Shown: positions 34,625-36,031 of the stretch, one piece after another | Layout: each line of letters begins with the position of its first letter | How positions within the stretch are numbered: position 1 is the first letter of the stretch | NCBI RefSeq assembly: GCF_024223415.1 | Contig: NZ_CP100500.1 | Strand: one strand, 5' to 3' | Length of the DNA: 64,000 bases | DNA from: Escherichia coli | Lineage (GTDB): Bacteria; Pseudomonadota; Gammaproteobacteria; Enterobacterales; Enterobacteriaceae | Position numbers and translations under genes: made by a program | The notes under the pieces: generated by a model | Told to the model about the DNA's origin: nothing | What the model saw: the letters and a program-made list of their open reading frames with translations, nothing else | Databases searched by the model: none

Positions 34625-35176
34625 ATGACTCAAAACTATGAACTGATTGTGAAAGGGATCCGCAATTTTGAGAATAAAGTTACGGTAACTTTAGCGTTAC
34701 GGGACAAAAAACGCTTTGACGGTGAAATTTTTGACCTGGACATCTCGCTGGACCGTGTTGAAGGTGCCGCGCTGGAGTTTTATGAGTCAGCAGCCAGAAG
34801 GAGCATCAGACAGGTCTTCCTGGATGTTGTTGCCGGGTTATGTGAAGGGGATGAGCAGTCGCCGGAAAAGCGCCCCGTAATTTTAGAGGCGCAGAATGTG
34901 TGGATAACCTACAAAGGAAAGCTACCGGGAAGAATTACTGGTTCTCTGAAGACGCCACCGACGGCATTGCGGTCAGAAAAAGATGATATTGAATCGCCCA
35001 TTGAAAAACTGGAGGGCAGCGTAGCTGATCTGAATAAAAAATTGTCGGTGCTGATCCCTTCTGAAGATGAAAAAAAACGCCGCGATGAGCAGTTTGCGGC
35101 GTTTTACGATTATTGCATTGAAGTTACTCGCAGGAATTTTGTGAAGATTTTTGAGGAGGGTAAATCTCTTCAGTAA
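34625..35176 (+). CDS. hypothetical protein (183 aa) inserted between holin and endolysin
   Basis: Starts 4 nt after the holin stop; soluble, charged, no TM segment; no family recognised. Confidence 0.5.
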   Translation: MTQNYELIVKGIRNFENKVTVTLALRDKKRFDGEIFDLDISLDRVEGAALEFYESAARRSIRQVFLDVVAGLCEGDEQSPEKRPVILEAQNVWITYKGKLPGRITGSLKTPPTALRSEKDDIESPIEKLEGSVADLNKKLSVLIPSEDEKKRRDEQFAAFYDYCIEVTRRNFVKIFEEGKSLQ

Positions 35177-35384
35177 GCTTAATGGCGGACGCTGCAATTA
35201 ATTCAGGAAGGTCCGCAAGGTCATCTGTCAGTGGATATGATGAAAAATCGGCGGCAGTTCTGTTAAGAATCGCTTTAACTAATTCCTTTTCCTTCTCCGG
35301 CAACAAGTTGATTAGAGCTACGACTGCTTGCCTGAGTGCGATTAAATCAGCAAAAGTTTGTTTTGGTAGATTTGTGTAATCCAT
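35124..35384 (-). CDS. hypothetical convergent ORF (about 86 aa)
   Basis: MDYTNLPKQTFADLIALRQAVVALINLLPEKEKELVKAILNR...; overlaps the 3' end of the 183-aa gene; either could be the real gene. Confidence 0.25.
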   Translation of the reverse strand: MDYTNLPKQTFADLIALRQAVVALINLLPEKEKELVKAILNRTAADFSSYPLTDDLADLPELIAASAIKLTEEIYPPQKSSQNSCE

Positions 35385-35497
35385 AGTCACCTCTGTGTTT
35401 ATCAGATTGACATCCTCCTCCCGCCAGTGCCCATCACTGGTGAGGTAAGATTTAACATATCCAGGGTTCAGAAACCGATAAATCCTGATAAATATCC

Positions 35498-36031
35498 ATG
35501 AGCGCAAAAATCAAATACGGCCTGTCAGCTGCTGTTCTGGCGCTGATTGCTGCAGGCGCGTCTGCTCCTCAAATACTTGACCAGTTTCTGGATGAAAAAG
35601 AGGGTAACCACACTACGGCATACCGCGATGGTTCCGGTATATGGACCATCTGTCGTGGTGCCACAATGGTGGATGGTAAGCCCGTCATACCGGGAATGAA
35701 GCTGTCGAAGGAAAAATGCGACCAGGTTAACGCTATTGAACGTGATAAGGCGCTGGCATGGGTGGAGCGCAATATTAAAGTACCACTGACCGAACCACAA
35801 AAAGCGGGTATAGCGTCATTCTGTCCCTATAACATTGGCCCCGGTAAGTGTTTCCCGTCGACGTTTTATAAGCGGCTTAATGCCGGTGATCGTAAAGGTG
35901 CCTGTGAGTCGATTCGCTGGTGGATTAAGGACGGTGGGCGTGATTGCCGCACACGTTCAAATAACTGCTACGGACAGGTTATTCGTCGTGACCAGGAAGC
36001 AGCACTTGTGTGCTGGGATATCGACAGATGA
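35498..36031 (+). CDS. R: SAR endolysin (T4-lysozyme-like, GH24)
   Basis: N-terminal signal-anchor YGLSAAVLALIAAGASA and E-x8-D-x5-T catalytic spacing (EKEGNHTTAYRDGSGIWT). Confidence 0.85.
   Translation: MSAKIKYGLSAAVLALIAAGASAPQILDQFLDEKEGNHTTAYRDGSGIWTICRGATMVDGKPVIPGMKLSKEKCDQVNAIERDKALAWVERNIKVPLTEPQKAGIASFCPYNIGPGKCFPSTFYKRLNAGDRKGACESIRWWIKDGGRDCRTRSNNCYGQVIRRDQEAALVCWDIDR

What the first reader, a model, noticed from the sequence alone, without database searches (positions are those of the whole stretch)
34625..35507. Extra gene(s) inserted inside the lysis cassette between pinholin and SAR endolysin
The holin and endolysin here are phage-21-type, and in phage 21 those two genes are adjacent. 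In this prophage a 183-aa soluble, charged ORF starts 4 nt after the holin stop, and a convergent ORF of about 86 aa overlaps its 3' end before the endolysin start. A cargo gene embedded in the lysis cassette would be co-expressed late with lysis, and I cannot assign a family.
Basis: partly seen in the sequence, partly recalled or inferred. Interest (0 to 1): 0.55.

Follow-up and report, generated by a model that had tools for sequence, protein, structure and literature searches.

The report
YdfR gene plus antisense moron
The two ORFs between the holin and endolysin genes of this E. coli prophage are real, but they are a long version of the widespread YdfR (DUF1327) gene and a small opposite-strand accessory gene, both already annotated in hundreds of genomes and still without a proven function.

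Summary
A 183-aa ORF (34625-35176, +) starts 4 nt after the holin stop. A convergent 86-aa ORF (35124-35384, -) overlaps its last 53 nt. The endolysin starts at 35498.

Phage 933W has the same holin and endolysin types directly adjacent, so this DNA is an insert. It is not peculiar to this prophage, and the family can be assigned. The 183-aa protein is a long-form YdfR/DUF1327 protein (Pfam E 1e-40), 78% identical over residues 1-74 to K-12 Qin YdfR. Its core DNA occurs in 3366 of 5426 complete E. coli genomes. A 2026 paper reports that K-12 YdfR residues 1-72 bind the catalytic half of RNase E and co-purify with RNA.

The antisense ORF (phrog_2572; 313 genomes, including CFT073) has its own Shine-Dalgarno sequence and a terminator-like hairpin, so it looks like a moron. 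The stretch after the DUF1327 core is a recombination hotspot with alternative C-terminal tails and at least six unrelated antisense genes. DUF1327 followed by a convergent small gene also occurs in tail modules, which argues against a lysis-specific role.

Function remains unproven. This is a new member of a known kind, of modest interest.

The parts
34405..34620 (+). Class II (S21-type) holin, 71 aa, with dual-start motif MKSM. This is the left boundary of the insert.
   Evidence: phrog_20 and phrog_9876 'holin'. Homologues are annotated as class II holin family protein. It aligns with the 933W S protein.
34610..34617 (+). Shine-Dalgarno sequence GGGGAGAG inside the 3' end of the holin gene. 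It serves ydfR here and serves R directly in 933W.
   Evidence: Comparison of the junctions in the window, K-12 and 933W. The gap between the holin stop and the ydfR ATG is 4 nt in 88 of 90 loci and 3 nt in the other 2.
34625..35176 (+). Long-form YdfR/DUF1327 gene, 183 aa.
   Evidence: Pfam PF07041 E 1.1e-40 over aa 1-112. phrog_2091 matches full length. 78% identity to K-12 YdfR over aa 1-74.
34625..34840 (+). DUF1327 core, aa 1-72: three beta strands followed by a long helix. This is the part reported in K-12 YdfR to bind the RNase E N-terminal half.
   Evidence: AlphaFold2 gives E5-14, E18-27, E33-43 and H50-73, with 10-residue block pLDDT of about 65-85. This is the segment shared by all family members. 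The binding data are in PMC13232886.
34841..34960 (+). Second segment, aa 73-112, predicted disordered. Recurrent recombination junctions lie at its two ends, after about aa 72-74 and after KTPP (aa 112).
   Evidence: pLDDT is below 50 for residues 75-120. Variant proteins end at KTPPESQP*, KTPPKW* and KTPPLG*.
34961..35173 (+). C-terminal helical-hairpin (coiled-coil) module, aa 113-183. PGAP treats it as non-coding, but it is probably real.
   Evidence: The reading frame is kept in 169-, 183- and 211-aa variants that all end at the same stop, including an in-frame 84-nt indel. The module also occurs fused to other N-termini or other domains (P0036, P0064, P0030). AlphaFold2 predicts helices 123-143 and 147-181.
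35124..35384 (-). Convergent 86-aa gene (a86): small, acidic (pI 4.6), predicted three-helix protein of unknown function.
   Evidence: phrog_2572 matches 86 of 86 positions, E 9e-53. PGAP annotates it as CDS WP_001306174.1. It is present in 313 of 5426 genomes. AlphaFold2 gives three helices at mean pLDDT 71. pN/pS is 0.44 in this frame against 1.06 and 1.97 for the other minus-strand frames and 2.27 and 3.81 for two plus-strand frames; the plus-strand frame that shares its wobble positions scores 0.32, so this is only suggestive.
35388..35393 (-). Shine-Dalgarno sequence GAGGTG, 3 nt upstream of the a86 ATG.
   Evidence: Read directly from the sequence. It is kept in L001, L002 and L003; the other aligned copy, L068, lacks one base of it (GAGTG).
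35070..35105 (-). Terminator-like hairpin for a86, on the minus strand: AAAACGCCGC, a 12-nt loop, GCGGCGUUUU, within a U8 tract. It lies inside ydfR codons 149-161. On the plus strand the U8 tract is an A8 run.
   Evidence: RNA fold -17 kcal/mol, z -3.0 against shuffles. The consensus scan missed it because the loop exceeds 8 nt. The stem is kept in L002, where the tract is U5.
35422..35497 (.). Conserved block just upstream of the R start codon, shared by cassettes that carry different antisense genes. It contains the hairpin CCAGTG-N5-CACTGG (35424-35440). It is the candidate promoter and 5'UTR region of a86, and also the SD-less leader of R.
   Evidence: Alignment of right flanks across cassette classes. 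No strong sigma-70 match was found; there is only a weak candidate pair, -35 TTTATC and -10 TATGTT. The role is inferred.
35498..36031 (+). Endolysin with a SAR-type N-terminus, 177 aa, of the Qin rrrQ / 933W R type. This is the right boundary of the insert.
   Evidence: phrog_7 'endolysin'. It aligns along its full length with 933W R. It is distant from R21 (3hde, E 3e-16). The N-terminal hydrophobic Gly/Ala-rich segment 9-27 has a Kyte-Doolittle mean of 1.78.

Best explanation
The S-R interval holds two separate accessory units placed exactly at the holin|endolysin junction of a Qin/933W-type lysis cassette.

(1) A long-form ydfR (DUF1327) gene lies on the late strand. It is translated from the ribosome-binding site in the holin's 3' end, so it should be made late together with the lysis proteins. 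Its 72-aa beta-beta-beta-helix core is orthologous to K-12 YdfR. By homology it most likely binds the catalytic N-terminal half of RNase E and/or RNA, acting as a dispensable late modulator of RNA decay rather than as part of the lysis machinery. A disordered linker and a shuffled coiled-coil module follow the core.

(2) A convergent 86-aa gene has its own Shine-Dalgarno sequence and terminator-like hairpin. This is a moron, most likely expressed from the prophage when late transcription is off and overrun by Q-antiterminated late transcription.

The segment between the DUF1327 core and the R start codon is a recombination hotspot where C-terminal tails and antisense genes are exchanged.

Shown: gene identities, boundaries, translation and termination signals, polymorphism and distribution. 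Inferred: timing of expression, RNase E binding by this allele, and any phenotype.

My sub-confidences are: family identity 0.95; a86 is a real gene 0.75; RNase E/RNA-directed function 0.4.
For: Family identity: Pfam DUF1327 E 1e-40; 78% identity to K-12 YdfR over aa 1-74; PGAP label 'YdfR family protein'.

Insert boundaries: 933W has S and R adjacent with the same SD sequence; the S-ydfR gap is 3-4 nt in 90 of 90 loci; in K-12 the ydfR stop overlaps the rrrQ start (ATGA).

Distribution: the core is in 3366 of 5426 E. coli genomes and a86 in 313.

Hotspot: there are 13 distinct ydfR-to-R spacings, with alternative tails and antisense ORFs of 86, 90, 98 and 104 aa that are unrelated to each other and each preceded by a GAGG-type SD.

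a86 as a unit: SD, ORF, and hairpin with U8 tract.

Not lysis-specific: DUF1327 also lies between tail genes I and J, after Rz, and upstream of other holin types.

Against: No experiment exists for this allele. In the same paper, YdfR overexpression changed few transcripts, so a role in RNA decay is unproven.

No convincing sigma-70 promoter was found for a86.

Substitution data cannot separate the a86 frame from the plus-strand frame that shares its wobble positions (0.44 against 0.32), and the third-position excess has p about 0.065.

PGAP calls the long ydfR a C-terminally truncated pseudogene.

The AlphaFold2 model of the 183-aa protein is of low overall confidence (mean pLDDT 58.7).
Confidence: 0.6

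Rival explanations
1. DUF1327 (or an analogous small late-strand gene) and the convergent small helical gene form one functional two-gene module. In this reading, a late-expressed effector and a lysogen-expressed antagonist or partner are kept mutually exclusive by convergent transcription, and the pair moves as a unit between sites in the late operon.
For: DUF1327 followed by a convergent small ORF recurs in at least four genomic contexts: the S|R junction, tail I|J, after Rz, and upstream of other holin cassettes. Searching from the partner side, 20 of 20 viral loci with the a98 family (phrog_25324) have a convergent small gene ending 13-30 nt away, and in 13 of them it is DUF1327. The same a98-DUF1327(72 aa) pair is seen in both lysis and tail contexts.
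Against: The commonest forms, K-12 at 103 aa and the 116-aa class (61 of 87 loci), have no partner. Partners swap: near-identical DUF1327 genes pair with a98 or with a 186-aa ORF. a98 pairs with an unrelated 94/181-aa family in 7 of 20 loci (hhalign probability 2.8%). The a74 family sits opposite DUF1327, opposite a coiled-coil protein, or opposite tail gene I. The partner families are not detectably homologous to each other (best pair z 3.3, not significant after 15 comparisons). K-12 YdfR is not toxic.
Confidence: 0.2
2. YdfR is a cytoplasmic regulator of lysis timing, acting like an antiholin (as T4 RIII or P1 LydB do) on the pinholin or on release of the SAR endolysin.
For: It is tightly packed between S and R, shares the holin's SD, and in K-12 is translationally coupled to R. 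A genetic screen cited in PMC13232886 listed ydfR among envelope-integrity hits.
Against: 933W lyses with the same S and R types and has no ydfR. DUF1327 also occurs in tail modules and next to unrelated holin types. There is no similarity to any lysis-category PHROG, Pfam family or PDB entry. It has no transmembrane segment.
Confidence: 0.1
3. The 183-aa ORF is a disrupted ydfR, which is how PGAP reads it. On this view an antisense moron inserted after codon 112, and residues 113-183 are fortuitous read-through with no function.
Against: The frame stays open, and ends at the same stop, in 169-, 183- and 211-aa variants with in-frame indels. The module occurs at 44-66% identity in other proteins that have no a86 next to them (P0030, P0047, P0064, P0076; L100). 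It is predicted as a helical hairpin.
Confidence: 0.15
4. The 86-aa antisense ORF is not a gene. It would be an open frame that exists by chance opposite other constrained sequence.
For: No promoter was found. All homologues with more than 45% query coverage are 79-99% identical to it and, where a source names the organism, from E. coli (a partial 71% match is from Salmonella enterica). Codon-position statistics are weak. There is no Pfam, PDB or fold match.
Against: It has a canonical SD 3 nt from the ATG and a terminator-like hairpin 18 nt after the stop. The frame is intact in all 6 haplotypes examined, and its DNA is present in 313 genomes, 293 of them with >=80% coverage. Different antisense ORFs with SD sequences occupy the same slot in other cassettes. 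AlphaFold2 from the single sequence gives a three-helix fold at pLDDT 71.
Confidence: 0.2

Closest known systems
E. coli K-12 Qin prophage essQ-ydfR-rrrQ (YdfR, P76160, DUF1327)
   Same: Same holin type, same 4-nt S-ydfR junction and SD, same endolysin type. The DUF1327 core is 78% identical over aa 1-74.
   Different: K-12 YdfR is 103 aa with a short helical tail, and its stop overlaps the rrrQ start (ATGA). The window protein is 183 aa with a different segment from residue 73 onward and a coiled-coil module. Here R starts 321 nt further on, and an antisense gene lies in between.
Phage 933W lysis cassette (S, R, ant, Rz/Rz1, bor)
   Same: Homologous S and R. The SD in the S 3' end and the 4-nt spacing are the same.
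   Different: 933W has nothing between S and R. Its accessory genes sit between R and Rz (ant) and after Rz (bor).
Lambdoid morons such as lambda bor (own knowledge: Juhala/Hendrix definition; bor is antisense to the late operon and expressed in lysogens)
   Same: a86 is a small gene antisense to the late operon. It is present or absent among related phages and has its own SD and a terminator-like hairpin.
   Different: No promoter was identified. The product is cytoplasmic and acidic rather than a lipoprotein. Its 3' end overlaps the neighbouring late gene by 53 nt.
Phage proteins that target RNase E: T4 Srd, T7 gp0.7, phiKZ Dip (own knowledge)
   Same: A phage-encoded small protein whose K-12 orthologue binds RNase E (PMC13232886). 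Like Srd, it binds the N-terminal catalytic half.
Soluble antiholins or lysis regulators: P1 LydB, T4 RIII (own knowledge)
   Same: A soluble protein encoded next to a holin gene.
   Different: No similarity was detected. The gene is dispensable in homologous cassettes and also occurs outside lysis cassettes.

Membership tests
DUF1327 / YdfR family (PF07041) | Significant match to the Pfam PF07041 profile | tested here: met
   E 1.1e-40, aa 1-112 against model positions 1-92 of 93.
DUF1327 / YdfR family (PF07041) | Homology to the name-giving protein, K-12 YdfR | tested here: met
   78.4% identity over aa 1-74, E 3e-43.
DUF1327 / YdfR family (PF07041) | Gene placed immediately after a class II holin gene | tested here: met
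   The gap is 4 nt here, and 3-4 nt in 90 of 90 sampled close relatives. Distant members do not always keep this position.
DUF1327 / YdfR family (PF07041) | Binding to the RNase E N-terminal half and co-purification with RNA, as reported for K-12 YdfR | not testable with these tools
   Known only from PMC13232886. Inferred here from 78% identity of the core.
DUF1327 / YdfR family (PF07041) | K-12-like architecture: about 100 aa, with the stop codon coupled to the R start | tested here: not met
   The protein is 183 aa, and R starts 321 nt after the stop. This is a long-form variant.
Moron (autonomous accessory unit in a phage operon) | Present or absent between otherwise homologous neighbouring genes | tested here: met
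   a86 is absent from 933W, K-12 and the 116-aa class, and is replaced by a90, a98 or a104 in other cassettes.
Moron (autonomous accessory unit in a phage operon) | Own terminator | tested here: met
   Minus-strand hairpin with U8 tract 18 nt after the stop; -17 kcal/mol, z -3.0. This rests on the fold prediction only.
Moron (autonomous accessory unit in a phage operon) | Own promoter | tested here: inconclusive
   No match of 9 or more of 12 sigma-70 positions upstream of a86. There is only a weak candidate, TTTATC-17-TATGTT, in a conserved block.
Moron (autonomous accessory unit in a phage operon) | Expression from the repressed prophage | not testable with these tools
   Needs RNA-seq or Ribo-seq of a lysogen.
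Antiholin / lysis regulator | Similarity to a known lysis-regulator family, or a membrane or holin-binding domain | tested here: not met
   No lysis-category PHROG, Pfam, NCBIfam or PDB match. No transmembrane segment.
Antiholin / lysis regulator | Obligate association with a holin gene | tested here: not met
   DUF1327 genes lie between tail genes I and J and in other places.
Toxin-antitoxin or anti-phage defence system | Match to known defence or TA protein models | tested here: not met
   PADLOC found nothing for YdfR, a90, a98, a104 or the 134-aa domain. The only hit is a weak NsnC match (E 0.0014), which spans the probably non-coding N-terminal extension of the 127-aa version of a86 and its first 27 residues.
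Toxin-antitoxin or anti-phage defence system | Toxicity of one partner | not testable with these tools
   The literature reports that K-12 YdfR overexpression causes no growth defect.
Phage-21-type cassette (pinholin plus SAR endolysin) | Class II holin with dual start and two transmembrane domains | tested here: met
   MKSMDK start motif; phrog_20 and phrog_9876.
Phage-21-type cassette (pinholin plus SAR endolysin) | Endolysin orthologous to R21 | tested here: not met
   Only distant from R21 (3hde, E 3e-16, 62.6 bits). It aligns along its full length with 933W R and its homologues are annotated rrrQ. It has the same functional type, with a SAR-like N-terminus.

The most novel reading that the evidence does not exclude
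DUF1327-type late-strand genes and the small helical genes that converge on them form a mobile two-gene switch. The late protein engages RNase E or RNA during lytic growth. The opposite-strand protein is made only in the lysogen and counteracts or complements it. Convergent transcription enforces mutually exclusive expression. The pair relocates among late-operon sites: the S|R junction, upstream of S, tail I|J and tail L|M.
Probability: 0.2. Interest if true: 0.6.

Novelty: new member of a known kind. Interest (0 to 1): 0.3.

Why it matters
YdfR-family genes sit inside the lysis cassette of prophages in most E. coli genomes, yet they have no known role. Three results here give concrete experiments for a very common orphan phage gene: the gene is a precise presence/absence insert at the holin|endolysin junction; its conserved core matches the reported RNase E-binding fragment; and the DNA after the core is an exchange site for antisense accessory genes. 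Two annotation points also follow. RefSeq's 'pseudogene' call for long-form ydfR is probably wrong. The 'DUF1823' label on the antisense gene in some phage records is unsupported. Nothing found here changes the current understanding of lysis.

Tried and rejected
Searches on a86 that found nothing:
- PADLOC: the only hit was NsnC (E 0.0014), which spans the non-coding extension of the 127-aa version and the first 27 residues of a86, so I rejected it.
- Pfam: the best matches were DUF1823 at E 0.23 and ABATE at E 0.19, neither significant.
- NCBIfam: no hits for either ORF.
- Foldseek against PDB and BFVD, and phmmer against PDB: nothing.

Searches on YdfR that gave little:
- PDB profile search: only generic coiled-coil noise over residues 113-157.

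Comparisons that were negative or inconclusive:
- hhalign of the DUF1327 core against the 94-aa family that also faces a98: no relation.
- Pairwise tests for homology among the six antisense proteins: best z 3.3, not significant after multiple testing.
- pN/pS and codon-position tests on a86 and on the C-terminal module: too few substitutions to decide. One search was misaligned by one codon and was discarded.

Other dead ends:
- Rfam: no family in the region.
- Literature searches for DUF1327, ydfR plus holin, the WP accessions, and Qin/essQ/rrrQ found no functional study apart from PMC13232886.
- A 3128-aa repetitive protein (P0075) hit by the YdfR search looks like a repeat artefact and was not pursued.
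Full report
OBSERVATION

The ORF map and the sequence confirm every coordinate.
- A 71-aa holin gene (34405-34620, MKSMDK dual-start motif) ends with TAA at 34618-34620.
- Four bases later, an ATG at 34625 opens a 183-aa ORF that ends at 35176.
- On the minus strand, an ORF runs from ATG 35384 to the stop at 35124 (86 aa). It overlaps the 3' end of the 183-aa ORF by 53 nt.
- The endolysin starts at 35498.

A longer TTG-initiated version of the minus-strand ORF (127 aa, from 35507) is unlikely to be the real start. PHROG 2572 covers exactly the 86-aa part, and GAGGTG lies 3 nt upstream of the ATG.

Context is that of a lambdoid prophage: primase, RusA, antiterminator Q, three tRNAs, S, the two ORFs, R, Rz, terminase. 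The prophage sits in an E. coli chromosome, because the yohC-pbpG flank is 100% identical to E. coli strains.

WHAT THE SENSE GENE IS

The 183-aa protein matches Pfam DUF1327 (PF07041, E 1.1e-40, aa 1-112) and phrog_2091 over its full length. It is 78% identical over aa 1-74 to YdfR of the E. coli K-12 Qin prophage. In K-12, ydfR lies between essQ and rrrQ.

PGAP, NCBI's annotation pipeline, labels the homologues 'YdfR family protein'. DNA of the core (34625-34840) is found in 3366 of 5426 complete E. coli genomes. The family is narrow, with only 76 clusters at 50% identity among 1.84 billion proteins. This is a standard resident of this cassette type.

IS IT AN INSERT?

Yes. In phage 933W the homologous S and R genes are adjacent with a 4-nt gap, and the SD sequence GGGGAGAG in the 3' end of S serves R. 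In the window and in K-12 the same SD and the same spacing serve ydfR instead. In 90 of 90 sampled loci the gap between S and ydfR is 3-4 nt.

In K-12 the ydfR stop overlaps the rrrQ start (ATGA), which couples their translation. In the window, R starts 321 nt after the ydfR stop and has no SD.

The endolysin is of the Qin/933W type and is only distantly related to R21 of phage 21 (3hde, E 3e-16). 'Phage-21-type' therefore holds for function but not for orthology. I did not verify the arrangement in phage 21 itself.

ARCHITECTURE

Comparison with other alleles shows mosaic boundaries after about aa 72-74 and after aa 112 (KTPP).

AlphaFold2 with a 29-sequence alignment gives three parts (mean pLDDT only 58.7):
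- a core of three beta strands plus one helix (5-73; 10-residue block pLDDT about 65-85),
- a disordered stretch (75-120),
- a helical hairpin (123-181).

THE ANTISENSE GENE

a86 belongs to phrog_2572. PGAP annotates it as a CDS (WP_001306174.1). Its DNA is present in 313 of 5426 genomes, including CFT073. Its homologues covering more than 45% of the protein are 79-99% identical and, where a source names the organism, from E. coli; one partial 71% match is from Salmonella enterica.

The product is acidic (pI 4.6). From the single sequence it is predicted as a three-helix protein at mean pLDDT 71. It has no Pfam, PDB or fold match. The 'DUF1823' label in some phage records corresponds to E 0.23 and is unsupported.

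The gene has an SD. Eighteen nt after its stop there is a minus-strand hairpin, AAAACGCCGC / GCGGCGUUUU, within a U8 tract (-17 kcal/mol, z -3.0). The A8 run in ydfR codons 149-151 is that U tract read on the other strand.

No convincing sigma-70 promoter was found. A weak candidate (TTTATC-17-TATGTT) lies in a 75-nt block upstream of the R start that is shared by cassettes carrying different antisense genes.

pN/pS is 0.44 in the a86 frame. It is 1.06 and 1.97 in the other minus-strand frames and 2.27 and 3.81 in two plus-strand frames. The plus-strand frame that shares the same wobble positions gives 0.32, and the third-position excess has p about 0.065. This evidence is suggestive only.

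HOTSPOT

Among 87 loci I found 13 distinct ydfR-to-R distances. The main classes are:
- K-12, 308 nt, translationally coupled;
- a 116-aa form with no antisense gene (61 loci);
- cassettes with a90 (phrog_2411), a98 (phrog_25324), a86, or a104 (phrog_1853);
- fusions of DUF1327 to a 134-aa domain (phrog_1085), some of them frameshifted.

The antisense proteins are not detectably related to one another. None matches PADLOC.

BEYOND THE LYSIS CASSETTE

Distant DUF1327 genes lie between tail genes I and J (L092, L097-L099), after Rz (L093), and upstream of other holin types (L119-L121). In every case they are on the late strand and are followed by a convergent small ORF.

I then searched from the partner side. 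All 20 viral loci with an a98 homologue have a convergent small gene ending 13-30 nt away. In 13 loci it is DUF1327. In the other 7 it is an unrelated 94/181-aa family (hhalign probability 2.8%). a74 homologues face DUF1327, a coiled-coil protein carrying the same short C-terminal tail, or tail gene I itself.

These results argue against a lysis-specific role for DUF1327. They show a recurrent pattern of a late-strand small gene facing an antisense small gene. Because partners swap on both sides, and because the commonest ydfR forms have no partner, I favour a moron hotspot over a strict cognate pair. I keep the pair reading as the novel case at 0.2.

FUNCTION

The only functional data I found are in Gopel et al., RNA Biol 2026 (PMC13232886). 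In that paper:
- K-12 YdfR residues 1-72 were recovered in a bacterial two-hybrid screen (with RNase G as bait) and interact with RNase E.
- Full-length YdfR interacts with RNase E 1-597 in the two-hybrid assay, and RNase E 1-598 co-purifies with it.
- RNA co-purifies with it.
- Overexpression is not toxic and changes few transcripts.

The window core is 78% identical to that fragment.

An antiholin-like role is disfavoured. For a86 I infer expression in the lysogen and silencing by antiterminated late transcription running through it. Its function is unknown.

VERDICT

This is a new (long-form) member of a known family, plus a moron, at a known variable site. It is of modest interest (0.3).

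Noticed in passing
window 33777-34009 (+), 34017-34073: A cluster of three tRNA genes (Met-CAT, Arg-TCT, Thr-TGT) lies between Q and the holin, followed by two terminator-like hairpins. This is the position where Stx phages carry ileZ-argN-argO and stx; there is no toxin gene here.
   Followed up: partly
window 32075-33178 (-): A 367-aa ORF lies antisense to the late operon between Q and the tRNAs (phrog_410). It is annotated 'porin' in matching E. coli genomes, so it is another moron in the same late region.
   Followed up: partly
window 36032-36568: A second insert in the lysis cassette, between R and Rz. It has a strong bidirectional terminator-like hairpin (36122-36154) and two small hydrophobic ORFs: 36109-36354 (81 aa, no PHROG) and 36347-36520 (57 aa, phrog_1115).
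   Followed up: no
window 35070-35077; L005 about 2190-2240: The A8 homopolymer inside the ydfR C-terminal module is the U tract of the antisense terminator. L005 (STEC2018-553) is frameshifted at this run, which splits a DUF1327-domain fusion into 194-aa and 134-aa ORFs.
   Followed up: partly
RefSeq loci L003, L088, L089, L090: PGAP annotates long-form ydfR as a pseudogene ('missing C-terminus', 112 codons in L003, L088 and L090 and 82 codons in L089), although the frame is intact for 169-183 codons. This is probably a systematic annotation artefact.
   Followed up: yes
window 35424-35440 and block 35422-35497: A conserved hairpin, CCAGTG-N5-CACTGG, lies in a 75-nt block just upstream of the SD-less R start. 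The block is shared by cassettes with different antisense genes. Its role (a86 promoter or 5'UTR, or leader for R translation) is unresolved.
   Followed up: partly
L113-L116, L122-L124 (viral contigs): The a98-family antisense gene also faces a 94/181-aa protein family with no detectable similarity to DUF1327, in tail L/M regions and upstream of an S21-like holin.
   Followed up: partly
L113 3029-3241, L122 3286-3498, L131 2399-2611: 70-aa ORFs in tail regions (MDY.IE.I...VTF.YE.H..SIVVHV.IPL.KE.SL...) have a pattern of beta strands followed by a helix that recalls DUF1327. They were not detected by my HMM and could be very distant relatives.
   Followed up: no
protein P0075 (3128 aa, metagenomic): A giant repetitive protein matches YdfR residues 7-58 in 6 repeats (E 1.4e-8). 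It is probably a beta-strand repeat artefact and remains unexplained.
   Followed up: no
window 7684-7764 (+): Rfam Peptidase-S11 RNA motif (RF03039, 72.8 bits) in the chromosomal flank near pbpG. This is ordinary host sequence.
   Followed up: no
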